DNA of 20,000 nucleotides, from the IMG/VR virus record IMGVR_UViG_3300044912_000278; one strand, 5' to 3'. Under the pieces are notes generated by a model that had not been told where the DNA came from, ran no database searches, and worked only from the letters and a program-made list of their open reading frames with translations. Source of the stretch: an uncultured virus (IMG/VR IMGVR_UViG_3300044912_000278). Its lineage: Duplodnaviria; Heunggongvirae; Uroviricota; Caudoviricetes. This document shows, piece by piece, positions 1 to 19,204 of the stretch; the stretch's first letter is position 1; each line of letters begins with the position of its first letter. The position numbers were made by a program, and so were the translations under genes.

Positions 1-312
1 TAATTGACCGTTAACATTATAATCGCATGCAATGTTAAACACTTTAGGTTTACGACCATCACGTCTTGACATGTGATCAAATACATTATGTAGGATCTCA
101 TGCCCAATAACAAATTCAATTTGTTTTATTGATAGTGGCTCAAAAAAATCACGATTATAAAAGATATGACGACCATCTGTTGCTGCAGTTGGACACCAAT
201 CTGATCCATCTACAATTTTTAAACGAGTAGCCATATTTCCAAAAAATGGGTGGCGTAACAACAAACCTACGCGAGCTACGATAATTTTATCAACAATTGA
301 ATCTAAAGACAT
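1..312 (-). CDS. HEXXH metallopeptidase-like protein (DUF2201-type, usually with C-terminal VWA domain); runs off the window edge
   Basis: Not in the ORF track; translated by hand: MSLDSIVDKIIVARVGLLLRHPFFGNMATRLKIVDGSDWCPTAATDGRHIFYNRDFF...GHEILHNVFDHMSRR...FNIACDYNVN. PFFG, TAATDG, HEILH and NIACDYxVN motifs; SD TAAGGAG upstream; follows a MoxR-type ATPase. Confidence 0.85.
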   Translation of the reverse strand, partial: MSLDSIVDKIIVARVGLLLRHPFFGNMATRLKIVDGSDWCPTAATDGRHIFYNRDFFEPLSIKQIEFVIGHEILHNVFDHMSRRDGRKPKVFNIACDYNVNGQL

Positions 313-343
313 GAATTACTCCTTATAGTTATATAGTGCGTAA

Positions 344-372
344 AGTATAACACCGCCTTGCGGCGGTGTCAA
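344..372 (-). promoter_or_regulatory. sigma70-type promoter TTGACA-N17-TATACT
   Basis: tgtcaa at 367-372 and agtata at 344-349 on the + strand, 17 bp spacer, upstream of the HEXXH gene. Confidence 0.7.
350..369 (-). terminator. GC-rich hairpin ACACCGCC-GCAA-GGCGGTGT (possible terminator or stabilising stem) overlapping the promoter spacer
   Basis: Perfect 8 bp stem with GNRA tetraloop just after the ATPase stop; followed only by an imperfect U tract (TATACTTT). Confidence 0.5.
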
Positions 373-385
373 CTGTTTTTTAATA

Positions 386-1474
386 TTATTGACCGCTAGC
401 GGCAGTAATATATTTGCCATATTTACCGTGGAACTCATCAAAACAACTAATTTCTTCTGGATCAAGCGGTAATTTGTATGAGCATAATGCAAGTTTAGTA
501 CCCATAATTGCAATTTCTGTTTCGAAATTGTTCATCATAAATAAGAAATAATTATTAACTTGCTCGTTCCAATTAGGCACCTTTTTTCTAGCAGATTCTT
601 TTAATTCGTAACATAAACTAATTGTTAACGAGTACATTGCTGAAATCTCTTTTGTTTCACAAGTAGTTACTTTACCATTTAATACTGCAGTCGGATTAGG
701 TAGTTTACTTGAAAACTGTCTGTGAGCCATAAATTTAATAGCTAAGCCTTCACCAATTGAACCAGCAACTAAATCTGATAATGTATCTGCGTCAGTATCG
801 TTATCGTTAATTAACTCACTTACAAAGCTCCATGATCTAGGTGTAGCAAATGCACGTGAACTTGATTTAGAATCAAAAGTATAAAGATCGCTTTTGCATG
901 AAGTTAAAAATCCAATTACATCTGGATGAACTGCATTGTCAGTTGCCCAATCAAAGTAATCATCCCAATCAACTGCCATTTCTAAGTGAATAAATCTATT
1001 AGCTAATGGCGCAGGCATACGATATGTAACACCTTTGTCTGTTTCTCTGTTACCAGCAGCAACAATAACAACGTTATCAGGTAACTCGTATTGTCCTACA
1101 CGACGATTTAAAATAAGCTGATAAGCAGCAGCCTGTACACTCGGAGCAGCAGAATTCATCTCATCTAAAAACAAAATAACAGTTTTAAATTGTGATGCAA
1201 ACGCATTGCTTGGTAATTCTGACGGTGGAGCCCATACCATTGTTTGGTCTACTGAATCAAAGTACGGAATACCTTTAATATCAGTTGGTTCCCATAAACT
1301 TAATCGAACATCGATAACATGTGCATCTAATTCACTACCTAGCTGTTTAATAATATCTGATTTACCAATGCCTGGAGGTCCCCATAAAAAGATTGGACGT
1401 TTGCTGCTGAATGCTTTGCGTAAAGATTTTTTAGCTGATTTTGGTCCAACTGTACGTGATACGATGTTGCTCAT
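386..1474 (-). CDS. MoxR-type AAA+ ATPase
   Basis: Walker A GPPGIGKS, Walker B LFLDEMN, AAGNR sensor-1, PLANRF Arg finger, ATPRSW; SD GAGGT. Confidence 0.9.
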   Translation of the reverse strand: MSNIVSRTVGPKSAKKSLRKAFSSKRPIFLWGPPGIGKSDIIKQLGSELDAHVIDVRLSLWEPTDIKGIPYFDSVDQTMVWAPPSELPSNAFASQFKTVILFLDEMNSAAPSVQAAAYQLILNRRVGQYELPDNVVIVAAGNRETDKGVTYRMPAPLANRFIHLEMAVDWDDYFDWATDNAVHPDVIGFLTSCKSDLYTFDSKSSSRAFATPRSWSFVSELINDNDTDADTLSDLVAGSIGEGLAIKFMAHRQFSSKLPNPTAVLNGKVTTCETKEISAMYSLTISLCYELKESARKKVPNWNEQVNNYFLFMMNNFETEIAIMGTKLALCSYKLPLDPEEISCFDEFHGKYGKYITAASGQ

Positions 1475-4367: not shown

Positions 4368-4805
4368 CTATTGTGTTTTATTAATTTTAAGAAATCCAAA
4401 ATCTTGATCAGATACGTCAATTCCTTCGGCTGCAGCAGCATTGTAACAGATATCTCTATACCAACGACCTACAATTTCATCTTCGGGATCACCTTCGTAA
4501 CCGTATCCATCTTGTTTTAATTTTTCAACCCAAAACTCATTCCAGTCAAGTTCAAAAAAACCATTTCTAACATTTTGTTTATTAACCTTAAATCCGATCA
4601 CATCGACCCACGGTTCTTTCTTTAATGTAGCAATTTCTTTTGGAGTAAGAGGCGTTTGAACAACTTCTTCTTTAACTTTAGGTTGTCTTACTTTACGTTT
4701 TTTAATAGCTTGTTGTTTAGATAATTGTGCTTCTTTTAATTGCTGTTGCAATGCCAACTCATCATTACGATCACCGAATAATTTTTTTATAATTTTTTCA
4801 AACAT
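4368..4805 (-). CDS. hypothetical phage protein (about 145 aa)
   Basis: Start revised to ATG at 4805 (TAATG overlap with queE stop); EPWVDV...GFFELDWN...IVGRWY. Confidence 0.8.
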   Translation of the reverse strand: MFEKIIKKLFGDRNDELALQQQLKEAQLSKQQAIKKRKVRQPKVKEEVVQTPLTPKEIATLKKEPWVDVIGFKVNKQNVRNGFFELDWNEFWVEKLKQDGYGYEGDPEDEIVGRWYRDICYNAAAAEGIDVSDQDFGFLKINKTQ

Positions 4806-5644
4806 TATGTTCCCCAACCGTTGCCAAATAGTGGAAGATGTAGCCTATCACTATATCGCAATCCATATTTTAATGCAAGTTCTGCTACTGCTTTGTTGTT
4901 TAAATGATAAACATCTTCAACACCGCCAACTGGCATTAAATAAACATCACCTCTAAAACCAGCTGCTCTATACCATTCTAATGCTTCTAGAGCTTCAATA
5001 ACATCTTCTTTAGTTGCAACTACAAATTTTAAAAATGAACCATAACTTGATAGTTGGTACTCAGTTACAATTTCAGGACAAATTGCCTTATCTTTTAGTT
5101 CTCCGCTTACACTTAGCTTAGGACTAATTGAAAATGTTACTTGATATCGTCTTTTTCCAAATATGTAATCTTCTAATTCTTCTGATAATACTTGTGTGCC
5201 GTTAGTTTCAAACGTAATGTTTTTTAAGTCTTCTAACTTTGGATGATTTAACAATTCTGGATATATCTTTTGCCATCCAGGTAACAATGGTTCACCTCCT
5301 GTAATTACTAAGTGTACATTACCCCATCTTTTATTAGGTAGCAGATTAATCATTTTATCTGCAATTTCATCGATAGTCATTATAGGACTTAACTGTTTAA
5401 ATTTTGGATGCCAGCTTGCATAACTGTCACACCCGGTAGTTACTAATGGTAGTTCATCATATGAATGATATTGTATACCATTATTAGCAATTGCATCTGC
5501 TTGTACACTTAGTTCACCTTTAGGCATACCAAACCCTCTACAAGAAAAATTGCACCCAAACGTTCTAAGGAACACACTTGGCACTCCCATAAATCTACCC
5601 TCACCTTGTAATGAGTAAAATATTTCTGATACTTTAAGTGTCAT
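4805..5644 (-). CDS. queE: 7-carboxy-7-deazaguanine synthase (radical SAM)
   Basis: VSEIFYSLQGEG, VFLRTFGCNFSC...GCDS, VITGGEPLL, FETNGT, SISPKL, KFVV, YLMP, RLH motifs; clustered with folE. Confidence 0.92.
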   Translation of the reverse strand: MTLKVSEIFYSLQGEGRFMGVPSVFLRTFGCNFSCRGFGMPKGELSVQADAIANNGIQYHSYDELPLVTTGCDSYASWHPKFKQLSPIMTIDEIADKMINLLPNKRWGNVHLVITGGEPLLPGWQKIYPELLNHPKLEDLKNITFETNGTQVLSEELEDYIFGKRRYQVTFSISPKLSVSGELKDKAICPEIVTEYQLSSYGSFLKFVVATKEDVIEALEALEWYRAAGFRGDVYLMPVGGVEDVYHLNNKAVAELALKYGLRYSDRLHLPLFGNGWGT

Positions 5645-6092: not shown

Positions 6093-6764
6093 TTATTTGT
6101 TTACAATACTCATAAATTCTGCACGAGTAGTTGGATCGTTTTTAAATGCACCACCTAACTTACTAGTAATAGTAGTGCTACCTGTGTCTTCTACACCTCT
6201 TGCGGCAACACAATAATGTTTTGCATCGATAACTACTGCAATATTATCAGTATCTAAGATGTATTCTAATGCGTGGAATACTTGTTCTGTTAATCTTTCT
6301 TGTACTTGTGGACGTTTTGAAAAGTATTCAACTACGCGGTTAATTTTGCTTAGACCAAGTACAACGTCGTTTGGAATATAACCAACTGTTGCAAATCCAT
6401 CAATTACTACAAAATGATGTTCGCAATTACTTTGCACGTTAATGTTGCGTTCAATTAACATTTCATTGTACCCCATTTTATTTTGTATAGTAGTACACTT
6501 TGGAAATGCGTCATAATCAAGGCCCCAAAATATTTCGTTAACGAACATTTTTGCAACTCGTTTAGGAGTGTCTGCTAAACTGTCATCTAATAAGTCTAAC
6601 CCTAATGTTACCATAATATCATAAAACTTATCCTGAATGATATTAATTTTTTCTGATGTTGTTAATATTTTTTCAGTCACTGGTGTTTCAACACCTAAAC
6701 TTACTAAATGATTGTGTATTGCTAAACCTAATGCTGGATCTGTTTTTAATTTATTAAAGCTCAT
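6093..6764 (-). CDS. folE: GTP cyclohydrolase I
   Basis: DTPKRVAKM, SNCEHHF, GLSKINR, RPQVQERLT, HYCVAARGV. Confidence 0.97.
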   Translation of the reverse strand: MSFNKLKTDPALGLAIHNHLVSLGVETPVTEKILTTSEKINIIQDKFYDIMVTLGLDLLDDSLADTPKRVAKMFVNEIFWGLDYDAFPKCTTIQNKMGYNEMLIERNINVQSNCEHHFVVIDGFATVGYIPNDVVLGLSKINRVVEYFSKRPQVQERLTEQVFHALEYILDTDNIAVVIDAKHYCVAARGVEDTGSTTITSKLGGAFKNDPTTRAEFMSIVNK

Positions 6765-6973: not shown

Positions 6974-7289
6974 TGTTTCCCTCCGATCTTGCTATTTCTA
7001 AAAACATTTTATATTTTTCATATGCTGCGTTAACAGTTGGATTAGAATCTCTAACATACATATCTTCATAATGTTTTTTATTCCATTCTTCACATTTTTC
7101 AGCTTTGTCGATCAACTTTATAAAATCTTTCTCGTTTAATTTAACAGTTAAAGACCTCGTAACGTTTGCTCGTTCGCTTGGAATTGATGCCTTTGACCAA
7201 TCTATCGAATAAGTGTTATCTGCAGAATAATATTGTTCAATGTCTATGCTTCGTATACCGTATTTCTGTGTTATTTCGGATAGTTCCAT
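6957..7289 (-). CDS. hypothetical phage protein (about 110 aa)
   Basis: Start revised to ATG at 7289 (TAATG overlap with the PRTase stop); C-terminal NPTVNAAYEKYK. Confidence 0.75.
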   Translation of the reverse strand: MELSEITQKYGIRSIDIEQYYSADNTYSIDWSKASIPSERANVTRSLTVKLNEKDFIKLIDKAEKCEEWNKKHYEDMYVRDSNPTVNAAYEKYKMFLEIARSEGNNDRFN

Positions 7290-7819
7290 TACTTTTTCCA
7301 GTAGTTTTCCCAAGGAAAGTCAATCCATATAGGATCTTCTCGTTTGTCAAATTCTTCTGCGCAATAATCAACATGCGCGTTACTTGCAGCATTATCAAAT
7401 ATTACAGCAAATCTTACATTCCTGTGCCACACATCATGATCCCATCGTATATCATTTGGTAAACACAATGATTTCCAATCTTCTTTAATCCAATCAAGTG
7501 TTGCACCTGAGTCATTAATATCATCAACAATTAGAATGTTTTTAGCTAGACCAACACTTGCTAATTCATCATCAGTGACTCCAAATGCATCACACGCCAT
7601 CCATGCATTGTGTTCATTATCATCCGGATGATCACGTAAGCTAACGTGTAATGTTAACATTTTAACACCTAGGTATTGGCTTAGTAAGTTCGCGGGGATA
7701 AGTCCCCCGCGTGTAATGCCTACAATATAATCTGGTTTCCACTCGTCTTTTTGTATTTGACGTGCAATTTCCAATGCTGCACCTTCTAATTGTTTCCAAC
7801 TGTATTTTACTACTTTCAT
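7289..7819 (-). CDS. type I purine phosphoribosyltransferase (Gpt/Hpt-like)
   Basis: IVGITRGGLIPA loop, PRPP-binding ILIVDDINDSGATL, C-terminal WIDFPWE. Confidence 0.9.
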   Translation of the reverse strand: MKVVKYSWKQLEGAALEIARQIQKDEWKPDYIVGITRGGLIPANLLSQYLGVKMLTLHVSLRDHPDDNEHNAWMACDAFGVTDDELASVGLAKNILIVDDINDSGATLDWIKEDWKSLCLPNDIRWDHDVWHRNVRFAVIFDNAASNAHVDYCAEEFDKREDPIWIDFPWENYWKK

Positions 7820-8268
7820 TCGTCGTCCTTTGGAAGTATGCTGTCTTCGTAACAGATTGTGTAAATTGATTTTAAATTCTCATATGCTTTGTCTAGGCCA
7901 GGGTAATCATTGCATAGTTTTCTGAATGCATTCCATTCAGGAAAGTTATCTTCAAATGGTTTACCATATGCAGCCCAACTAGAAGTAGACCAAGTATTTC
8001 CTCCTATTCCGTTATATGCGTAATAGTTACTTGTTAAATTAGTAGAATTAAATCCGGTTATAGTATTATGGCCATACATGCCATTACTTCCAGTGATAGT
8101 AATTGTATCACTCGCTGCTGTTCCACACATAACATTTGACGCTGTATATGCTGATAATGTACTGGCATCAAACGCAGGTATACTGTAACGTGTTGGATCC
8201 CCATCCATAGTAAATGTAATAGTATCAGATCCGGTTGATGTAGTAATAGTATCATTTAAAGTTGTCAT
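7816..8268 (-). CDS. hypothetical protein, Thr/Ser-rich N-terminus (start 8268 or 8283)
   Basis: ORF track; low-complexity N-terminus then YPGLDKAYENLK helix; ATGA coupling to PRTase. Confidence 0.75.
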   Translation of the reverse strand: MTTLNDTITTSTGSDTITFTMDGDPTRYSIPAFDASTLSAYTASNVMCGTAASDTITITGSNGMYGHNTITGFNSTNLTSNYYAYNGIGGNTWSTSSWAAYGKPFEDNFPEWNAFRKLCNDYPGLDKAYENLKSIYTICYEDSILPKDDE

Positions 8269-9352
8269 ATAATACCCTTGCATTAAAAAATTCTTTTGTT
8301 AAGTAATCTGCTTGTTTTTTAATATGCAACGCATATTCGTCGTATTTTTCTATATAATTAATAATTTGATTACATAAATCAAAACTGTGTGCCTCGTAAT
8401 CTGCAAAACATTCAGTCCACTGTGATGGATATTTAAAATGATACATATACATTTCTTTATAGCTAAGTCTGTTAGGCACCATTGGTATAGCTCCAAGTAA
8501 TGCACCTTCATAACAACTAATGCCTAGTGTTTCTTGTAAATTAGCACTAAACACAATCTTTGCTTCACTTAACAATTTATGATATTCGTCTTTAGTAAGT
8601 GTTTCTTCTTGGCATATAACAAAGTCATATTGTGGTAATTGATCTTTTAATGCTTTAAAAATATCAACTTGTTTTTCTGATGCAATTCTGTGCGGAAACA
8701 CGATTAAATCACGTTTCTCTGCATTTAAATATGGTGTAAGTTCGTCGGCTAAATATTCCATTGGCCATCCAGTGCGAACAATTTTACCATCGTCGTACCT
8801 TTCATTCCAATCTTCGTCAAACCACGGATTTTCACTAATCATGCCGTTGTTTAATAGTTGCTCCATAAACATTCTCACATGAAATTCTGTTGCAAAATAA
8901 TTATGATCAAATGATGCATAATAACTTTTTTCAGCAAGTTTAACCCAACCGTGATCAATCCCACCTAAAAAATCATGTTTGTCATAACTGCCAGCATGCC
9001 ACAGTCCGTGAAATGTCCAATTTAATCTCATCAAATCTTTAATATATTTTAAATTTATAATTGCTGGATTCCAAGCATCTGTAAATAAGAAATGATCATT
9101 AGTTGTTGATTTATCATAATTTTTTAAAAATCCAACAAGTTGCGATCCCTTCCATACGTTAGTGTCTATAAAGTTTAAGAATGCACCGGGTGTTACATCT
9201 GATGATTGTTGATCACCAGTAATTTGAATAATGTTAAAGTTATCGCCAAGTTGTTTTTTAAGTTGTTTAGGTATATATTCAAACCATTGACTAGTATAGC
9301 GAGTGTCAAGTGGTTCAAGTGCAAAAATCCAAATAGTAGGTTTTATTTTCAA
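8252..9352 (-). CDS. GT-B fold glycosyltransferase (GT4-like, retaining)
   Basis: FPHRIASEKQ motif and E-x7-E signature (ETLGISCYE) followed by GAIPMVPNRLSYKE; TTG start with SD AGGAG. Confidence 0.85.
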   Translation of the reverse strand: MKIKPTIWIFALEPLDTRYTSQWFEYIPKQLKKQLGDNFNIIQITGDQQSSDVTPGAFLNFIDTNVWKGSQLVGFLKNYDKSTTNDHFLFTDAWNPAIINLKYIKDLMRLNWTFHGLWHAGSYDKHDFLGGIDHGWVKLAEKSYYASFDHNYFATEFHVRMFMEQLLNNGMISENPWFDEDWNERYDDGKIVRTGWPMEYLADELTPYLNAEKRDLIVFPHRIASEKQVDIFKALKDQLPQYDFVICQEETLTKDEYHKLLSEAKIVFSANLQETLGISCYEGALLGAIPMVPNRLSYKEMYMYHFKYPSQWTECFADYEAHSFDLCNQIINYIEKYDEYALHIKKQADYLTKEFFNARVLYDNFK

Positions 9353-9368
9353 AATAAACTCCTGTTAT

Positions 9369-9390
9369 GAAAGCTCCAAAAGGAGCTTTC
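9369..9390 (-). promoter_or_regulatory. 9 bp hairpin GAAAGCTCC-TTTT-GGAGCTTTC just upstream of the glycosyltransferase SD
   Basis: Perfect inverted repeat; no U tract on the coding strand. Confidence 0.6.
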
Positions 9391-9407: not shown

Positions 9408-9662
9408 TTATGATTTTTTATAATTGTTAGTTTTTGGTCTAACATTATTGGGCCATGGTTTATTGCCCTGGTATGGTTTTCTAGGACGCTTACTTGCCAT
9501 ATACGCACCATACGATTTAGTATCTTTGCGATACAAATCTGCTGGATCAAATTTACGTAATTCAATTCTACAAAAGTCACGAAATGCTTCAAGATCTTCA
9601 AAGATTTTAACAACATCTGGACGACTTTCAAAGTATGAGAATGTTTTGTAATTTTTAGCCAT
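9408..9662 (-). CDS. small basic hypothetical protein (84 aa)
   Basis: ORF track; KIFEDLEAFRDFCR...FDPADLY, basic tail; preceded by TATAAATA. Confidence 0.8.
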   Translation of the reverse strand: MAKNYKTFSYFESRPDVVKIFEDLEAFRDFCRIELRKFDPADLYRKDTKSYGAYMASKRPRKPYQGNKPWPNNVRPKTNNYKKS

Positions 9663-9792: not shown

Positions 9793-10152
9793 TTAGTTGT
9801 ATTCGGTATATGATCCATTTTCACCATCTTCAGAAACTTCAATCCACACTTCTTTATGTGGGTATTCATCTTTTATGTTCCAGTATAAATCATTGCTTAT
9901 CATTTCACAACTTTTATTATCTAATGATAATGTTGAAGTAATGTACAATGATTCTAACCATCTTTTAAATTGTATAAACTCTACATCTCTGTCATCATGT
10001 GTAACTTCAAGCCATACTTTAAAATGAAATATGTGTCTATGCGGGTGTCCTAAAAACGATACATCTGCTAAGTTAGGATCAGTTAGTGCTGCAGGATAAC
10101 AATGGATTCCTTCTTTCTTAAAAGTGACCCAGATCATTTGTTTATTAATCAT
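9793..10152 (-). CDS. dpdL: T-fold QueD-like protein with LxxxHRHxF motif; DpdL-like (predicted CDG decarboxylase)
   Basis: EGIH...FLGHPHRHIFHF...DRDVEFI...SCEMI...VSEDGENG. The QueD CxxxHGH motif is replaced by LGHPHRHIF, which matches the DpdL signature as I recall it. Confidence 0.7.
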   Translation of the reverse strand: MINKQMIWVTFKKEGIHCYPAALTDPNLADVSFLGHPHRHIFHFKVWLEVTHDDRDVEFIQFKRWLESLYITSTLSLDNKSCEMISNDLYWNIKDEYPHKEVWIEVSEDGENGSYTEYN

Positions 10153-10673
10153 TTAAGTACCTTGTCGTTATTATAGTTAAACCAGTTAGTGAACTTCTTG
10201 TGATCTTGTAGATCGTGCAAGCTATGTGTCCACACGCCGGGGTTAGTTGCGTTAAATGTAGTGTCGTCAATCTTAACCATTGTATTATAACTCCAATCCT
10301 TAATATTTGCAACCGGAATTCTAATTTGTGGTATAAAATTATTATACTTGCATAAATTAGTATTTGTGTTAAAATCGATTACTGCTGTAAATGGAATATC
10401 TAATGAACACAGTTTTCCTGTTTTTAAAAAGTGCGCAATAGTGTTATTCCAGTTGAGCCATGCACCTGGTGTATCTGGATTAAAACTATGGTTTGCACCA
10501 AAGAAGATATGTGTAATATCCTCTGTAGTATCTAACCGGTAATGGATTGCTTCTGTAGTTTGAATACCAACAATAAATAATGTTTTTAAACCATATGCTG
10601 GAGTATGCTCTACTTCATCTCCAACAAAAAATTTAGCAGTGTTAGTAGTTGTGTTGTTGTATGTTCTATTCAT
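10149..10673 (-). CDS. hypothetical protein (174 aa) coupled between dpdA and dpdL
   Basis: Overlaps both neighbours; FFVGDEVEHTPAYGLKTLF, HIFFGANHSF, KIDDTTFNATNPGVW. Confidence 0.85.
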   Translation of the reverse strand: MNRTYNNTTTNTAKFFVGDEVEHTPAYGLKTLFIVGIQTTEAIHYRLDTTEDITHIFFGANHSFNPDTPGAWLNWNNTIAHFLKTGKLCSLDIPFTAVIDFNTNTNLCKYNNFIPQIRIPVANIKDWSYNTMVKIDDTTFNATNPGVWTHSLHDLQDHKKFTNWFNYNNDKVLK

Positions 10674-12297
10674 CTTTAATGCTATCTTCTAAGTTAGATA
10701 AGTTAAGTTCTTCATCAACGAAATCATCGTCATCGTCATCAAATGACCATAATTCATTAACCTTTGTATCAGGATTGATTGTTTTTTTACCAGTATTCCC
10801 GCGTGTACCAGGTATTGCTATCCACAGTTTGTTATATGTTTTAATAATTGCCAATGCGTCAACTAAATTATCAACTGCAAAGATTGAATCAATAACATCT
10901 CTAACATATACGTGTTTAAATTTTTCATCCACTAACATATTAGGCAAAATACCGTTATCGTATGCTCGATTTGCCTGTTGTACAGCATCCAAGTGACTCC
11001 ATACGTTGTGCCCCATTAATATAGCATAACTAAAACTATCCCAACTAGTTCTACCTACTTTATTAACTTTATTAGCATCACCCATTGTAATCCAATATTT
11101 AGGATCATTTAAGTATAATGGATCTGAAAATAATAATGCATGATCAATGTTATCATTATCAACTTCTGTCCAGTTAGGAACACCTTGACTGTATATACAT
11201 ATATCTTTAATTGGTACTTGATCGATTAACGGACTTGGATTAAACACTTTAAAGATCTTATCTTGAATAACTGCATCTTTAAATAGTCGAGTATCAGTTG
11301 AATATTTTTTATCATCAGCACTTGGCACCATTCGATACACCCATTTAGATCTATCTTCAACTTCGGTAGTAATATAGACTTGACCATTTGCAGTAGCTAA
11401 AAATGGACTAGCACAATCGTAACTAATAGTAAAGTTTGGATTATGATATTTACGTACTGCCCGTTGAATGTCTGTTAATAAACATGCCCATTCTAATTTA
11501 CTTGTTCCTAAAAAATGCATCCAATCTTGATGCCCTTGTTCTAGTAATCCGTCAAATCGCAATGTAACTAATCGTCTAAGAACTAGGTCAGCATCACACA
11601 TGTTTTGTCCACCCATTGCCCAACCATTAAACGCCTTGTCACCGTAGATAGTAGGATCGCAATATTTCTTCATACGTTGGTACCAATCTTCTGCATCAGT
11701 GTGTGTTTCGCCTTGCAATACGTTTAAGAATTTGCATTTACCAGAGCGATTATTAACAAAATAATCATTATTAATATAAGTACCTTGTACTGCATCCATG
11801 TAATCATTAATACCTGTTGCTGCTTGCCCTGCAGGGCTACGTGCAACCCACGCAGGAATATCAAGACACATACCGTAATCCATTAACTCGTCCATCCATC
11901 GTAATACTTGTTCACGTTTCTTTTGTGCTTTAGGACAAGCAGGATCTTTCCAATCAGCCGGCCACACACCTTTACCAATCTGGAAACCACCTGAGTCACC
12001 TAGTACCCAACTTGTAGTTCTGTCTCTGTTACGAAACATGTCTTCGCTTTCGTCAAACTTATCTAAATCTAAGTTTGCGTGTCCTGCTGAATATAAGCAC
12101 CATTTGTAGTAGAACTCTCCTTTTTCAGGTTCTAAATAGTTAAGTCCTTCTACTCCAGCTTTAAATGATGCAGGAATACGTGAAGGTTCAACATAATTAC
12201 CGTAACGTTGTTTTCCAATAAACGTCGAGTAAAAACCCGACGTTGCTGGTAGGAAAACAGCATAATCATTCTGCGTTGCTGTTAAGTTCCGATTCAT
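10666..12297 (-). CDS. dpdA: TGT-fold DNA 7-deazaguanine transglycosylase (DpdA family, possibly DpdA2-like)
   Basis: TGT motifs in order: GDSGGFQIG, MCLDIP, NVLQG, GWAMGG, MHFLGT, ISYDCASP, GHN; context with folE, queE and a T-fold gene. Confidence 0.85.
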   Translation of the reverse strand: MNRNLTATQNDYAVFLPATSGFYSTFIGKQRYGNYVEPSRIPASFKAGVEGLNYLEPEKGEFYYKWCLYSAGHANLDLDKFDESEDMFRNRDRTTSWVLGDSGGFQIGKGVWPADWKDPACPKAQKKREQVLRWMDELMDYGMCLDIPAWVARSPAGQAATGINDYMDAVQGTYINNDYFVNNRSGKCKFLNVLQGETHTDAEDWYQRMKKYCDPTIYGDKAFNGWAMGGQNMCDADLVLRRLVTLRFDGLLEQGHQDWMHFLGTSKLEWACLLTDIQRAVRKYHNPNFTISYDCASPFLATANGQVYITTEVEDRSKWVYRMVPSADDKKYSTDTRLFKDAVIQDKIFKVFNPSPLIDQVPIKDICIYSQGVPNWTEVDNDNIDHALLFSDPLYLNDPKYWITMGDANKVNKVGRTSWDSFSYAILMGHNVWSHLDAVQQANRAYDNGILPNMLVDEKFKHVYVRDVIDSIFAVDNLVDALAIIKTYNKLWIAIPGTRGNTGKKTINPDTKVNELWSFDDDDDDFVDEELNLSNLEDSIKDE

Positions 12298-16787: not shown

Positions 16788-17654
16788 TTAGTGTGATAAA
16801 CTTTGCATTTGTTGTTGTACATCAGCTACATGTTTTTGTACGTCCGGATCACTGGTTTGACTAACAGATGCTAACAGGCTATTTAATTTAGCCATAATCG
16901 CAGCTTCACTGTTGTCAAATTGTGTCATATCCGGTGCTGCAGGTGCAGATGGTGCTGTCGGTGCTGTTGATGCTGCCGCCGGTTCATCAGATGGTTGATG
17001 TGATCTAGTATGATCTGCAGGCGTAGCACCTCCGCCATCAATACCTAGGTATTTTGCTTTTGCTGCGCGAGTTAATGGTCCTTCTTTACCGTCAAGTTCT
17101 AAATTTGCACCAAATTCATCATTTAAGAATTTTTGCAATTTTTGAACTTTTGGATCGCCTGTAAAATTAGCTTCTGGTTTAGCATCAGTTCCTGGTTTAA
17201 CTTCTGGTTTAACTTCTGGTTTAACTTCTGGTTTAACTTCTGGTTTAACTTCTGGTTTAACTTCTGAGTCGTCTGACCATGGCATTGTTGGCATCGATGG
17301 CATCGATGGCATTTTTCCTGTATCAAGTGCATGCATACCTGCAGCACCTGCTCCTGCAATACCAGCAACTGAAGTACGTCCACCCCATTTAGCTGCTGCT
17401 TTATCTGCATCGCTAGCTGCATTCCATGCACTTGCTGCGCCTTTGGGCTCTTTAAAACCTAAACCTCGTGCATAATTAAGTGCAGCAATTCCTTTACTTG
17501 CTAGCGATTCATTAGCTATTGATTCCATGTGTTCTTTCAATGAAGAAGACGCATATGTAGGAGTAGTTATTTCTGCAGTATGTGACGGATTGTCAATTAA
17601 TGCCAATCGATCGCGTAATAAAGCAATTGATTCTGTTAATGTAGTTGGTTTCAT
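16788..17654 (-). CDS. low-complexity putative virion protein with peptidoglycan-binding-like motif and (EVKP)6 repeat
   Basis: VQKLQKFLN...LELDGKEGPLTRAA resembles PG_binding_1; Gly/Ala hydrophobic stretch VAGIAGAGAAG. Confidence 0.8.
   Translation of the reverse strand: MKPTTLTESIALLRDRLALIDNPSHTAEITTPTYASSSLKEHMESIANESLASKGIAALNYARGLGFKEPKGAASAWNAASDADKAAAKWGGRTSVAGIAGAGAAGMHALDTGKMPSMPSMPTMPWSDDSEVKPEVKPEVKPEVKPEVKPEVKPGTDAKPEANFTGDPKVQKLQKFLNDEFGANLELDGKEGPLTRAAKAKYLGIDGGGATPADHTRSHQPSDEPAAASTAPTAPSAPAAPDMTQFDNSEAAIMAKLNSLLASVSQTSDPDVQKHVADVQQQMQSLSH
17192..17266. repeat. perfect 12 bp tandem repeat (ctggtttaactt) x6, encoding EVKP
   Basis: Six identical units 17192-17263 plus a partial unit. 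Confidence 0.95.
17281..17312. repeat. 9 bp tandem repeat (ggcatcgat-like) encoding MPSMPSMPTMP
   Basis: ggcattgtt ggcatcgat ggcatcgat ggcat. Confidence 0.8.
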
Positions 17655-19204
17655 ATTCTATTTTCTCGTATATAAGTTTTAATTGCTGCTCTAGTTAGCG
17701 GACCCATCTTGCCATCTGGCTCTAAATGTGCGCCTAGCGAATTTAAGTATTCTTGAAATTGTTTAACACCTAGTTTAGTTGCTGAAGTAGTCGCTGTATG
17801 CGCAGCAGGCACACTTGCAGCTGGTTTATCTAACGGTGGCGGACTAGGCATTGCTGCAGTCGGAGGTGCAGCTTGAGGTGGTTTAATTGCTATATCTTTT
17901 TTACCCACATCTGACGGTTTTGCCGCAGTAGCTGGTAATTGTTGCGCACGAGCTTGATCCTTAGCTTTCTCCATATCTAATGTTCGACCGATATTTATTG
18001 CATCTAACCCTAATGATGCTGCAGTACCAATTCCGGGAACTAGCGATACTAAACCGGATGCTGCAGCAATACCTGAACCTAAATAATCACCTTCTTTTGC
18101 TCGATCATATGCATCATATGCACCATATGCTGCGCCTAAACCCGGGATGAGTTTAGAGCCAGCCTTTGCTAATGCAGCTTTTCCTACAGTAGGTGCAGCA
18201 CTTTTTGTTGCAGAACCTGCTAATTTAGCCATATCTAGTGGGCTAGATTTTATAGCACTTTTTGCTGCAGCAGGTTTAAATTTGCTTGTGTCCATTGCGT
18301 TATACTTTGCATCGTTTACGCTCGCTGATGGCATTGGACTAGATCCATCAGCGTACCCAAAAGCCTCTAATAGTGCATCTGCTACGCCGTTAAATGATTC
18401 ATGCACTGCAGGTGTTGTAGGACGTGGAAGATTTGCCATCATTGCATTTAATTGTGCCCCTTTGTTACCCATGCCTGCTGTTATATCTTTAAGTGACGAA
18501 GATGCTTGATTTAAGTAATTTGCAATATTAGGTGGCGGTGTATTTCCTGAATATTGGGTGCTATAGTTACCACTACCGTTAGCAGGAACAGGAACCCCAT
18601 TAAACCCGGGCACTTTCATACCTTTAAGCATATCAGGAACTTGTTGCATATTAAATCCAGGTGATTGCATATTGCCCTGACTTGCAAAATTAGGAGTAAT
18701 TTGAGCTTGACCTGGTGTCTGTGACGTAACAGGTGCTGCACCTGCTGATGACATCGTAGCAGCAGCTCGTTTATTATGTAAATCAGTTAACTGTTTAAGT
18801 AACTCGTCAATTTGATGTAATTTATCAGCTAATTCATTATGTTGTGTAGAAATAGCCGCACTTTGAGTTTTTAAGTTGGCATTAGCAGCATCGAACACTC
18901 TATTGTTATCGAACCAGCCTGCTTGTGGAAGTTTTGCATTTGGTGGAAGTAATCCAGCAGCTGATAATTTTTCAGCAACTTCAAATGGAACTTCATCATC
19001 TTCATCACCGTCTACATCAACAAAATTGCCAGTAACTGGATCAACTAATCCTTCAAGATTGTTATCTTTTGCTAGCTTTGCTAATAACGGTAATCGTACT
19101 TTATCGTCTTGTTCGTATCCAGTAGTAGCAGCTACTACTGCACTCAATGTTAAACCTTCATTTAACATATCTAGTTTATTCATTAATGTTCTAAAATCCA
19201 TCAT
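17651..19204 (-). CDS. low-complexity putative virion protein with glycine-zipper-like segment and C-terminal peptidoglycan-binding-like motif (517 aa)
   Basis: KLIPGLGAAYGAYDAYDRAKEGDYLGSGIAAASGLVSLVPGIGTAASLGLDA; VKQFQEYLN...LEPDGKMGPLTRAAIK; SD GGAGG. Confidence 0.82.
   Translation of the reverse strand: MMDFRTLMNKLDMLNEGLTLSAVVAATTGYEQDDKVRLPLLAKLAKDNNLEGLVDPVTGNFVDVDGDEDDEVPFEVAEKLSAAGLLPPNAKLPQAGWFDNNRVFDAANANLKTQSAAISTQHNELADKLHQIDELLKQLTDLHNKRAAATMSSAGAAPVTSQTPGQAQITPNFASQGNMQSPGFNMQQVPDMLKGMKVPGFNGVPVPANGSGNYSTQYSGNTPPPNIANYLNQASSSLKDITAGMGNKGAQLNAMMANLPRPTTPAVHESFNGVADALLEAFGYADGSSPMPSASVNDAKYNAMDTSKFKPAAAKSAIKSSPLDMAKLAGSATKSAAPTVGKAALAKAGSKLIPGLGAAYGAYDAYDRAKEGDYLGSGIAAASGLVSLVPGIGTAASLGLDAINIGRTLDMEKAKDQARAQQLPATAAKPSDVGKKDIAIKPPQAAPPTAAMPSPPPLDKPAASVPAAHTATTSATKLGVKQFQEYLNSLGAHLEPDGKMGPLTRAAIKTYIRENRI

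What the first reader, a model, noticed from the sequence alone, without database searches (positions are those of the whole stretch)
8252..9352. GT4-like glycosyltransferase with no visible hydroxymethyl-pyrimidine partner
Seen: GT-B motifs (HRIASEKQ, E-x7-E), TTG start, position two genes downstream of dpdL. Established: T4 alpha/beta glucosyltransferases are GT-B enzymes acting on hmC and need a dCMP hydroxymethylase. No thymidylate-synthase-fold or TET/JBP gene is present here. Inference: the acceptor may be the deazaguanine itself (for example the CDG carboxyl or an exocyclic amine), although a protein or cell-surface target is possible.
Basis: partly seen in the sequence, partly recalled or inferred. 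Interest (0 to 1): 0.7.

Follow-up and report, generated by a model that had tools for sequence, protein, structure and literature searches.

The report
Sugar transferase inside phage deazaguanine genes
A fragment of an uncultured giant phage carries a working-looking sugar-transferring enzyme inside the gene set that swaps guanine in DNA for 7-deazaguanine, which predicts, but does not show, a sugar-bearing purine in DNA.

Summary
The ORF at 8252-9352 (- strand, TTG start, AGGAG site 6 nt upstream) is real. Its model (pLDDT 93.6) is a complete two-domain GT-B fold, closest to retaining GT4/GT5 enzymes (Z 24-26). The donor-side residues R222, K227 and E274-x7-E282 are kept. It is not a T4 AGT/BGT relative beyond the shared fold.

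The neighbours are DpdL (LxxxHRHxF motif), a TGT-fold DpdA3-type transglycosylase, FolE, QueE and a purine phosphoribosyltransferase.

In related viral contigs with enough flank, DpdL accompanies the enzyme in 66 of 66 and DpdA in 48 of 48. The link also holds in five cultured phage lineages (PA5oct, ACP17, Phosso, BUDD/X1, BCSR5), in 7 of 8 distant viral loci, and in 10 of 10 alphaproteobacterial chromosomal loci. At least 5 of those 10 also carry a YhhQ-like transporter.

The closest complete relative has no ThyA-fold enzyme and no QueC.

Best reading (about 0.5): a tailoring glycosyltransferase that puts a sugar on a 7-deazaguanine. Acceptor atom, sugar and timing relative to DNA insertion are unknown.

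My searches found no paper describing such a base. This scan reached the same reading eight times before, on other DNA.

The parts
8252..9352 (-). GT-B (GT4-like) glycosyltransferase, 366 aa, TTG start
   Evidence: ORF; model pLDDT 93.6, pTM 0.91; GT-B retaining enzymes, Z up to 25.7; large family
9359..9363 (-). AGGAG ribosome-binding site, 6 nt before the TTG
   Evidence: sequence read directly
8669..8692 (-). HRIASEKQ (residues 221-228); R222 and K227 are the GT4-type Arg/Lys pair
   Evidence: near-invariant; the role of the pair is recalled knowledge of GT4 enzymes
8507..8533 (-). E274-x7-E282 motif (ETLGISCYE)
   Evidence: E282 invariant and E274 at least 90% conserved
9408..9662 (-). 84-aa protein of unknown function between DpdL and the glycosyltransferase
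   Evidence: no family; present in 49 of 66 related loci with at least 1200 nt of upstream flank
9793..10152 (-). DpdL (QueD paralogue, LGHPHRHIF = LxxxHRHxF)
   Evidence: motif defined in PMC10516641 section 16; 52% identical to PA5oct QCG76199.1, which that paper's Data S1 lists as DpdL
10149..10673 (-). 174-aa conserved protein of unknown function
   Evidence: no family; atlas scores under 0.9; in 61 of 63 related loci with at least 2500 nt of upstream flank; weak homologue upstream of ACP17 DpdA
10666..12297 (-). DpdA3-type DNA guanine transglycosylase, 543 aa, TGT fold with DSGGFQ
   Evidence: invariant D101 S102 G103 G104 Q106, D294; model pLDDT 86.7; every listed Foldseek match is a tRNA-guanine transglycosylase, best E 8.3e-8; 36.6% identical to PA5oct QCG76197.1, listed as DpdA3 in Cui et al. 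Data S1
7816..8283 (-). 155-aa protein of unknown function; its start overlaps the glycosyltransferase stop by 32 nt
   Evidence: no family; found in only 13 of 80 related loci
7289..7819 (-). purine phosphoribosyltransferase (closest to xanthine/guanine PRTase)
   Evidence: PF00156, E 2.9e-16; xanthine PRTase model, E 6.8e-15, below cut-off; 41 of 46 related loci with at least 7000 nt of downstream flank
6093..6764 (-). FolE, GTP cyclohydrolase I
   Evidence: PF01227, E 6.2e-60
4805..5644 (-). QueE, 7-carboxy-7-deazaguanine synthase
   Evidence: phrog_2076, E 2.8e-56; Radical_SAM

Best explanation
The gene encodes an active NDP-sugar-dependent glycosyltransferase (GT-B fold, GT4-like, probably retaining). 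It is an optional tailoring step of the QueC-free, DpdL-type 7-deazaguanine DNA-modification pathway. FolE, QueD (encoded elsewhere in the genome) and QueE make 7-carboxy-7-deazaguanine. DpdL is proposed to decarboxylate it to 7-deazaguanine. The DpdA3-type transglycosylase swaps the base for guanine in DNA. I infer that the glycosyltransferase adds a sugar, taken from a host nucleotide sugar, to the deazaguanine. This could happen on the free base before insertion or on the base once it is in DNA. The phage DNA would then carry a sugar-bearing deazaguanine that shields it from nucleases. Shown here: the fold, the intact donor-side residues, the TGT fold of the neighbour, and the conserved linkage. 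Inferred: the enzyme activity, the acceptor, the sugar and the timing.
For: Fold and donor-side residues:
- The model has pLDDT 93.6.
- Its best matches are sucrose-phosphate synthase, BshA and MshA, at Z 24-26 over 300-316 residues.
- R222, K227, E274 and E282 are conserved.
- 28 of 50 family members match PF00534 at E <= 0.01. The BUDD and BCSR5 homologues pass its cut-off.

Context in the window:
- DpdL, a TGT-fold DpdA, FolE and QueE are the neighbours.

Linkage in related DNA:
- In 80 related viral loci, counting only those with enough flank, DpdL is present in 66 of 66, DpdA in 48 of 48, FolE in 41 of 46 and QueE in 36 of 37.
- In PA5oct the gene lies between the proteins that Cui et al. 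list as DpdA3 and DpdL.
- It is also inside the cluster in ACP17, Phosso, BUDD and BCSR5. At least two DpdA types with no detectable sequence similarity to each other occur there.
- 7 of 8 distant viral loci (25-30% identity) carry DpdL, FolE and QueE.
- 10 of 10 bacterial chromosomal loci with flank have a DpdA-like gene next to it.
- In at least 5 of those 10, a YhhQ/Vut_1-like protein lies just upstream of the glycosyltransferase, and between it and the DpdA-like gene in three. From my own knowledge, YhhQ is the preQ0/preQ1 importer.

Published hints:
- PA5oct DNA resists five restriction enzymes and is read as G-modified, with the chemistry undetermined.
- HuiG shows that a glycosyltransferase can act on a 7-deazapurine.
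Against: - All support for the acceptor is gene context. No chemistry was done.
- The 80 close loci are one lineage with one gene order, so they count roughly as a single observation.
- DpdL clusters also exist without this enzyme: phiST, whose DNA carries plain dDG, RHph_I1_18, Ahp1 and others. The enzyme is therefore not needed for the base swap.
- If DpdL does remove the carboxyl, 7-deazaguanine offers no obvious oxygen acceptor in the major groove.
- In Phosso the only detected homologue of the window's DpdA lies about 170 kb from the glycosyltransferase.
- In the PhiXhv-12 group the distant homologue sits with GlmS and a PIG-L deacetylase, away from FolE and QueE.
- The window protein itself does not reach any Pfam glycosyltransferase cut-off.
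- The best structural neighbours use small-molecule or sugar acceptors, not DNA.
Confidence: 0.5

Rival explanations
1. The enzyme makes a soluble glycoside that never enters DNA. The product could be a deazaguanine glycoside of the huimycin type, or a pterin glycoside made from the FolE and T-fold branch, as tetrahydrobiopterin glucosyltransferase does. It would serve as an inhibitor, a storage form or a way to dispose of a by-product.
For: The top structural neighbours take small acceptors: BshA, MshA, LmbT, sucrose-phosphate synthase, and tetrahydrobiopterin glucosyltransferase at Z 20.5-20.6. HuiG glycosylates a free 7-deazapurine. The conserved N-domain residues are mostly aromatic and acidic, with few basic ones. 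The tightest phage neighbour is the T-fold protein DpdL.
Against: In bacteria the constant neighbour is the DpdA-like transglycosylase, not FolE or a T-fold gene. The cluster sits among replication genes. A free-base glycoside could also be the very substrate that DpdA inserts, which would merge this rival with the best reading.
Confidence: 0.2
2. The glycosyltransferase has nothing to do with deazaguanine. It glycosylates host surface polysaccharide, a virion protein or another protein, and its position is inherited gene order.
For: GT4-like enzymes are common in large phages for surface or protein glycosylation (review passage). Fold matches include the protein O-GlcNAc transferase GtfA and the teichoic-acid enzyme TarM. 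In PhiXhv-12 the homologue sits with sugar-supply genes, away from FolE and QueE.
Against: The linkage recurs across lineages with rearranged clusters, with different DpdA types, and in bacterial islands that hold little else. No membrane segment or other surface-polysaccharide gene was seen near it in the window.
Confidence: 0.15
3. It is a T4-like DNA glucosyltransferase acting on hydroxymethyl-cytosine or hydroxymethyl-uracil made by an enzyme outside the window.
For: It has a GT-B fold like T4 AGT and BGT. The contig is only 27% complete. A ThyX gene lies 2.3 kb outside the window. 3 of 5 large relatives carry a ThyA-family gene.
Against: The closest complete relative, G001 (100% complete), has no PF00303 match. 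The three ThyA matches score about 344-355 bits over the full model, which is what ordinary thymidylate synthases give. No T4 AGT or BGT family or structure appears in the listed matches. The conserved partners are deazaguanine genes, not hydroxymethylases.
Confidence: 0.03
4. The transglycosylase and the glycosyltransferase act on tRNA or on a protein rather than on DNA. Precedents are glycosylated queuosine in eukaryotic tRNA and deazaguanylation of proteins in type IV CBASS.
For: The TGT fold alone does not tell the substrate. A TGT-family enzyme conjugates a deazaguanine to protein in CBASS (abstract only). Glycosylated queuosine in tRNA is recalled knowledge, not from any call.
Against: The DpdA3/DpdL set in phiST gives DNA in which every G is dDG. 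PA5oct DNA resists restriction at G-containing sites.
Confidence: 0.05

Closest known systems
DpdL/DpdA3 7-deazaguanine (dDG) system of Cellulophaga phage phiST (Cui, Hutinet et al., NAR 2023, PMC10516641)
   Same: FolE, QueE, a DpdL with the LxxxHRHxF motif and a distant TGT-fold DpdA; no QueC. The window's DpdA and DpdL are homologues of the PA5oct proteins that the paper's Data S1 lists as DpdA3 and DpdL.
   Different: The window GT query found no match in phiST (tblastn, E <= 1e-5). The paper's main text has no word starting 'glycosyl', and its one supplementary file held as text does not contain 'glycosyltransferase'. Here a glycosyltransferase, a purine PRTase and a conserved 174-aa protein are added.
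HuiG, glycosyltransferase of the huimycin cluster (Kutzneria albida; PMC7439116)
   Same: A glycosyltransferase encoded beside FolE, QueD and QueE homologues. It is proposed to attach GlcNAc to the 2-amino group of a 7-deazapurine. Huimycin-type clusters carry PF13439, a GT4-type N domain.
   Different: HuiG acts on a free base in secondary metabolism, in clusters without DpdA. The phage family shows no PF13439 match. I could not compare the two sequences directly.
T4 alpha- and beta-glucosyltransferases (AGT, BGT)
   Same: Phage-encoded GT-B enzymes that sugar-coat a modified DNA base; they are the functional model for the best reading.
   Different: No sequence or family match, and they are not among the listed fold matches. 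Their acceptor, hmC, needs a hydroxymethylase that is absent here and in the complete relative.
BshA / MshA (UDP-GlcNAc-dependent retaining GT4 enzymes of bacillithiol and mycothiol synthesis)
   Same: Among the best structural matches, at Z 23.5-24.2 over about 300 residues. In their pathways a PIG-L/LmbE-type deacetylase follows (recalled knowledge). A PIG-L-like gene lies beside or near the homologue in PhiXhv-12 (annotated) and in BCSR5 and BUDD (weak: E 4.7e-5, below cut-off).
   Different: 10-13% identity; their acceptors are malate and inositol phosphate; the window cluster has no detectable deacetylase.
Bacterial Dpd system (DpdA/B/C with restriction genes)
   Same: Bacterial mobile islands that pair a DpdA-like gene with defence genes. 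In the Ochrobactrum locus L117, Mrr, GmrSD and integrase genes lie nearby.
   Different: The islands found here have DpdA-like, YhhQ-like and glycosyltransferase genes and two unknown proteins. I identified no DpdB or DpdC in them, but I did not search for those specifically.

Membership tests
GT-B glycosyltransferases, GT4-like (Pfam Glycos_transf_1, PF00534) | Two Rossmann-like domains with an inter-domain cleft (GT-B fold) | tested here: met
   Model pLDDT 93.6, pTM 0.91. Foldseek best E 9.5e-11. VIA Z 25.7 with rmsd 3.1 over 316 residues to 6kih, spanning residues 4-366.
GT-B glycosyltransferases, GT4-like (Pfam Glycos_transf_1, PF00534) | E-x7-E motif in the C-terminal domain | tested here: met
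   E274-TLGISCY-E282. E282 is invariant and E274 at least 90% conserved in 50 sequences.
GT-B glycosyltransferases, GT4-like (Pfam Glycos_transf_1, PF00534) | Arg/Lys pair that binds the donor diphosphate (GRxxxxKG-type) | tested here: met
   R222 and K227 in FPHRIASEKQ, both at least 90% conserved. Their role is recalled from GT4 structures and was not measured.
GT-B glycosyltransferases, GT4-like (Pfam Glycos_transf_1, PF00534) | Score above the curated Pfam cut-off | tested here: inconclusive
   The window protein has no PF00534 hit at E <= 0.01, only PF04577 at 19.3 bits against a cut-off of 27. 28 of 50 relatives hit PF00534 at E <= 0.01. The BUDD and BCSR5 homologues pass with 45.7 and 42 bits against 26.4.
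GT-B glycosyltransferases, GT4-like (Pfam Glycos_transf_1, PF00534) | Transfers a sugar from a nucleotide sugar | not testable with these tools
   Needs an enzyme assay.
T4-type DNA glucosyltransferases (AGT/BGT) | Sequence membership in the AGT or BGT families | tested here: not met
   No such Pfam family at E <= 0.01. No PHROG family at all.
T4-type DNA glucosyltransferases (AGT/BGT) | A hydroxymethyl-pyrimidine acceptor supplied by a ThyA-fold hydroxymethylase | tested here: not met
   PF00303 is absent from the contig, which is 27% complete, and from the complete relative G001. The Tet/JBP search found nothing, but its control did not ring either.
T4-type DNA glucosyltransferases (AGT/BGT) | Closest structural similarity to AGT or BGT | tested here: inconclusive
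   Neither is among the rows listed. A cyanophage 'DNA alpha-GT' is rank 23 in BFVD with TM about 0.45-0.51, a generic GT-B level.
DpdL-type phage 7-deazaguanine DNA modification system | DpdA: TGT-fold transglycosylase with the catalytic DSGG motif | tested here: met
   D101, S102, G103, G104, Q106 and D294 are invariant in 26 sequences. Model pLDDT 86.7. Every listed Foldseek match is a tRNA-guanine transglycosylase. A sequence profile found no PDB TGT.
DpdL-type phage 7-deazaguanine DNA modification system | DpdL: QueD paralogue with LxxxHRHxF in place of CxxxHGH | tested here: met
   LGHPHRHIF in the 119-aa ORF. Motif as given in PMC10516641. 33% identity to the phiST gene region.
DpdL-type phage 7-deazaguanine DNA modification system | FolE, QueD and QueE present; QueC absent | tested here: inconclusive
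   FolE and QueE are present. QueD was not found in the 27%-complete contig but is present in the complete relative. QueC is absent in 5 of 5 relatives and was not reported for the scanned ORFs of the contig.
DpdL-type phage 7-deazaguanine DNA modification system | 7-deazaguanine actually present in the DNA | not testable with these tools
   Uncultured phage; needs mass spectrometry on a cultured relative.
HuiG-like 7-deazapurine N-glycosyltransferases | Sequence relatedness to HuiG (PF13439-type N domain) | tested here: inconclusive
   No PF13439 hit in the window protein or in 50 relatives. The HuiG sequence itself was not at hand for comparison.

The most novel reading that the evidence does not exclude
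These phages, and a set of alphaproteobacterial mobile islands, make a glycosylated 7-deazaguanine in DNA. That would be the first sugar-bearing purine described in any genome. The sugar could be added to the free base, which an enlarged DpdA pocket then inserts much as eukaryotic TGT inserts bulky queuine. Or it could be added to dDG already in DNA, possibly at N2 or directly at C7. The missing glycosyltransferase would also explain why dpdA plus dpdL alone gave no product in E. coli.
Probability: 0.4. Interest if true: 0.85.

Novelty: new variant of a known kind. Interest (0 to 1): 0.62.

Why it matters
Known DNA glycosylation in phages is on pyrimidines (hmC, hmU). The eight known deazaguanine DNA bases carry no sugar. 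A conserved glycosyltransferase locked into the DpdL/DpdA3 module, in a family with over a thousand 50%-identity clusters, predicts a widespread and undescribed purine hypermodification.

It also gives a concrete candidate for the unidentified G modification of the P. aeruginosa jumbo phage PA5oct. That bears on restriction, on END-nuclease and glycosylase defence, and on sequencing of such DNA. The prediction can be tested now, because cultured carriers exist.

Tried and rejected
- **Complex prediction.** DpdA (residues 1-500) with the glycosyltransferase, each given as an alignment, scored 0.00 in two runs against a mark of 0.32. The verdict was 'no answer', so it says nothing either way.
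- **Sequence searches against solved structures.** The single-protein search found nothing useful. The profile search found only a weak C-domain match to glucosyltransferase 8xsg (E 1.3e-5). Its paper, seen as a search listing only, concerns a glucoside glucosyltransferase.
- **DpdA profile against PDB sequences.** It found no TGT. The fold search was needed.
- **Whole-window megablast against phage records.** No match.
- **Atlas search of the 174-aa protein.** All scores were under 0.9, with a DUF6273 lead only.
- **NCBIfam on the unknown proteins.** It named only the PRTase.
- **Overall charge as a test for DNA binding.** Rejected. The family median pI is 5.6, but the DpdA family, which must bind DNA, is equally acidic at 5.7.
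- **Structural comparison with T4 AGT/BGT.** They are absent from the listed rows, which does not exclude a lower-ranked match.
- **Tet/JBP search.** It found nothing, but its control did not ring.
- **Model coordinates.** They were not available to scripts, so no surface or pocket analysis was possible.
- **Cui et al. supplements.** I searched only the one file held as text, for six terms. The ACP17 accession numbers I tried were not found there.
Full report
**The observation**

The ORF at 8252-9352 on the - strand is 366 aa and starts with TTG. An AGGAG lies 6 nt upstream at 9359-9363, and homologues begin at the same residues, so the TTG start is credible. HRIASEKQ is residues 221-228 and E-x7-E is E274..E282, both read.

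The protein is not a chance ORF. All 8000 candidates scored had E <= 1e-3 among 90%-identity clusters, many of them on contigs of 200-390 kb. In addition, 1081 representatives of 50%-identity clusters matched at E <= 1e-3, and 196 at E <= 1e-30. None carried a precomputed Pfam domain.

**What the protein is**

On its own the sequence gives only a sub-threshold Pfam hit (PF04577, 19.3 bits against 27). It has no PHROG family, no NCBIfam family and no PDB sequence match.

- With a 50-sequence alignment (A1), AlphaFold gives pLDDT 93.6 and pTM 0.91.
- Foldseek against the PDB returns retaining GT-B enzymes: glycogen synthase (E 9.5e-11), BshA, MshA and sucrose-phosphate synthase.
- The second-look aligner gives Z 25.7 (rmsd 3.1 over 316 residues) to sucrose-phosphate synthase. 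BshA and MshA score Z 24, and tetrahydrobiopterin glucosyltransferase scores 20.5-20.6. All span residues 2-5 to 366.
- In A1 the invariant residues are Q71, W94, G121, E141, G195 and E282. R222, K227 and E274 are at least 90% conserved.
- 28 of the 50 members match PF00534 at E <= 0.01. The distant BUDD and BCSR5 homologues pass its curated cut-off.

I therefore read it as a catalytically intact, GT4-like GT-B glycosyltransferase from a divergent, mostly viral family. T4 AGT and BGT share only the fold. No Pfam family of theirs is hit, and they are not among the listed fold matches. A cyanophage 'DNA alpha-GT' ranks 23rd in BFVD at TM about 0.5.

**The surroundings**

The window is positions 70506-90505 of a 99,737-nt IMG/VR contig estimated to be 27% complete. 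The contig has T4-like capsid and portal genes. All genes around the finding are on the - strand. In order they are:

- PolB;
- a phrog_12062 protein;
- a 138-aa ORF;
- a 543-aa protein;
- a 174-aa protein;
- a 119-aa protein;
- an 84-aa protein;
- the glycosyltransferase;
- a 155-aa protein;
- a phosphoribosyltransferase;
- a 118-aa protein;
- FolE;
- a 147-aa protein;
- QueE;
- a 149-aa protein;
- a 5'-3' exonuclease.

The 119-aa protein carries LGHPHRHIF. This is the LxxxHRHxF signature that Cui et al. give for DpdL, their proposed CDG decarboxylase (I read sections 16 and 17 and passages).

The 543-aa protein has no Pfam hit, and a profile of it finds no PDB sequence. However, 26 homologues share an invariant DSGG.Q and D294. 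Its model (pLDDT 86.7) matches only tRNA-guanine transglycosylases among all listed Foldseek rows (best E 8.3e-8). It is 36.6% identical to PA5oct QCG76197.1. Cui et al.'s Data S1 lists that protein as DpdA3, with QCG76199.1 as DpdL.

The PRTase is closest to xanthine/guanine PRTases, though below their cut-offs.

**How firmly the enzyme is tied to these genes**

1. *Close relatives.* 593 of 600 pattern matches in viral contigs encode relatives, and the best 80 loci were kept. Counting only loci with enough flank, DpdL is present in 66 of 66, DpdA in 48 of 48, the 174-aa protein in 61 of 63, FolE in 41 of 46, QueE in 36 of 37 and the PRTase in 41 of 46. These share one gene order, so they amount to roughly one lineage.
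2. *Cultured phages.* tblastn finds homologues in 22 phage records.
   - In PA5oct the gene lies between DpdA3 and DpdL.
   - In ACP17 it lies between a DpdA and DpdL, flanked by QueD, FolE and QueE.
   - In Phosso it lies between DpdL and FolE.
   - In BUDD it lies beside a gene annotated as queuine tRNA-ribosyltransferase, with DpdL, FolE and QueE.
   - In BCSR5 it lies beside a 446-aa protein and QueE, with DpdL 2.7 kb away.
   - The DpdA of BUDD and ACP17 shows no detectable similarity to that of the window and PA5oct, so the enzyme accompanies at least two DpdA types.
3. *Distant viral homologues.* Among 8 loci at 25-30% identity, 7 carry DpdL, FolE and QueE. The eighth has only 1 kb of upstream flank.
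4. *Cellular genomes.* 19 loci were found.
   - Eight are MAG contigs with the phage gene order.
   - Ten lie in alphaproteobacterial records, several of them on contigs of 0.5-3.9 Mb: three Pelagibacterium, Ochrobactrum, Aurantimonas, Devosia, a Rhizobiales isolate, Azospirillum, an uncultured Roseobacter and an alphaproteobacterial MAG. All ten have a DpdA-like gene within about 2 kb.
   - One further locus (Caballeronia) is cut at the contig end.
   - In five of the ten, a YhhQ/Vut_1-like protein lies just upstream of the glycosyltransferase. In three of them (L117, L119, L120) it sits between the DpdA-like gene and the glycosyltransferase (PF02592, E 2e-7 to 1.2e-5, around the cut-off).
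   - The islands are bounded by resolvase, integrase or transposase genes. In one case Mrr and GmrSD lie nearby.

**Against over-reading the link**

DpdL clusters also exist without this enzyme. Of 28 phage records with DpdL, 17 are in the glycosyltransferase list and 11 are not. The 11 are:

- five Cellulophaga phage records (phiST and relatives; phiST DNA is fully dDG);
- RHph_I1_18;
- Ahp1;
- two Vibrio phages;
- a Synechococcus phage;
- a Chryseobacterium phage.

Conversely, the five records of the PhiXhv-12/Ep026 group have the distant homologue next to GlmS and a PIG-L-type deacetylase. Their FolE and QueE lie about 110 kb away. The enzyme is therefore an optional add-on, not part of the core base-swapping machinery.

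**The hydroxymethylase question**

- PF00303 is absent from the contig, but the contig is a fragment.
- The closest complete relative is G001 (372 kb, terminal repeats, 100% complete; glycosyltransferase 70% and DpdA 80% identical). It has no PF00303 match and no QueC, and it has a QueD elsewhere.
- Three of five large relatives have a ThyA-family gene at 344-355 bits over the whole model. That looks like ordinary thymidylate synthase.
- The window's contig has ThyX instead.
- Tet/JBP was not found, but the control for that search did not ring.

Nothing points to a hydroxymethyl-pyrimidine acceptor.

**Mechanism**

Shown:
- an intact GT-B enzyme;
- an intact TGT-fold neighbour;
- the deazaguanine synthesis genes;
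- the recurrent linkage.

Inferred:
- The enzyme adds a sugar to a 7-deazaguanine.
- If DpdL is a decarboxylase, the CDG carboxyl is an unlikely acceptor, because DpdL always travels with the enzyme.
- The exocyclic 2-amine has a precedent in HuiG.
- A bulky C7 substituent on a free base can, from my own knowledge, be handled by TGT-family enzymes, as with queuine. The order of glycosylation and insertion is therefore open.
- The PIG-L-like genes near the homologue in BCSR5, BUDD (weak) and PhiXhv-12, and GlmS in the latter, hint at GlcNAc followed by deacetylation in those lineages. PA5oct has a short epimerase-like gene in the cluster. The window cluster has no sugar-supply gene, so a host nucleotide sugar is assumed.
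- The PRTase may recycle the guanine that DpdA releases, or may activate the deazaguanine base. This is speculation.

**Literature**

- Cui et al. 2023 do not mention the enzyme. No word starting 'glycosyl' occurs in the main text, and 'glycosyltransferase' does not occur in the one supplementary file held as text.
- They report that ACP17 and phiST dpdA plus dpdL gave no dDG in E. coli.
- A 2025 preprint infers a modified G in PA5oct from resistance to five restriction enzymes, without identifying the base (passages).
- Searches combining deazaguanine with glycosyltransferase, glycosylated, UDP-GlcNAc, glycosyl, jumbo phage, DpdL and PA5oct listed no paper describing a glycosylated deazaguanine in DNA. 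I judged this from listings and abstracts, and from passages of the papers opened. Subscription journals are not covered.
- This scan reached the same reading eight times before, on other DNA. I repeated the key tests myself.

**Verdict**

The finding is a new variant of a known kind of system, resting on gene context and structure prediction only. It can be tested directly in cultured phages.

Noticed in passing
contig C1:67394-68173 (-), = L006:13395-14174, 2.3 kb outside the window: A ThyX flavin-dependent thymidylate synthase (PF02511, E 1.2e-40). Three of five large relatives carry a ThyA-family gene instead.
   Followed up: partly
window 9369-9390: A perfect 9-bp stem with a 4-nt loop (GAAAGCTCC TTTT GGAGCTTTC on the - strand). 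It lies between the stop of the 84-aa ORF and the glycosyltransferase ribosome-binding site. No T-run follows, so it is not a canonical terminator.
   Followed up: no
window 7289-7819 (-): A purine phosphoribosyltransferase closest to xanthine/guanine PRTase, conserved in the cluster (41 of 46 loci with flank). PA5oct has a shorter one. It may recycle the guanine expelled by DpdA or activate the deazaguanine base.
   Followed up: partly
L115-L124 (alphaproteobacterial chromosomes): Mobile islands with two unknown proteins of about 300-380 aa, a DpdA-like gene, a YhhQ/Vut_1-like protein and the glycosyltransferase. They are bounded by resolvase or integrase genes. In the Ochrobactrum locus L117, Mrr and GmrSD genes lie alongside.
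   Followed up: partly
L091:5750-8984 (Xanthomonas phage PhiXhv-12): The distant homologue sits directly after GlmS and a PIG-L-type deacetylase, which suggests a GlcNAc-then-deacetylate route. The phage's FolE and QueE lie about 110 kb away, and no DpdA was recognised.
   Followed up: partly
window 10666-10794 (residues 501-543 of DpdA): The DpdA ends in a disordered, very acidic tail (DDDDDDFVDEE...; pLDDT under 50) that is not part of the TGT fold.
   Followed up: no
window 16788-17654 and 17651-19204 (-): Two low-complexity proteins. One has six tandem copies of a PEVK-type repeat. The other ends in a peptidoglycan-binding domain (PF01471, E 2.6e-5).
   Followed up: no
contig C1:95660-98845 (L007:9661-12846): A phage-encoded ClpB-like double AAA+ chaperone (762 aa) next to a DnaJ homologue.
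   Followed up: no
window 1-1474 and contig C1:69636-70817: A MoxR-type AAA ATPase followed by a DUF2201 metallopeptidase/VWA protein; the pair is also seen at the end of the PA5oct locus.
   Followed up: no
contig C1:40975-54042 and 59145-67337 (+): Two giant ORFs of 4355 and 2730 aa among tail genes; neither was scanned.
   Followed up: no
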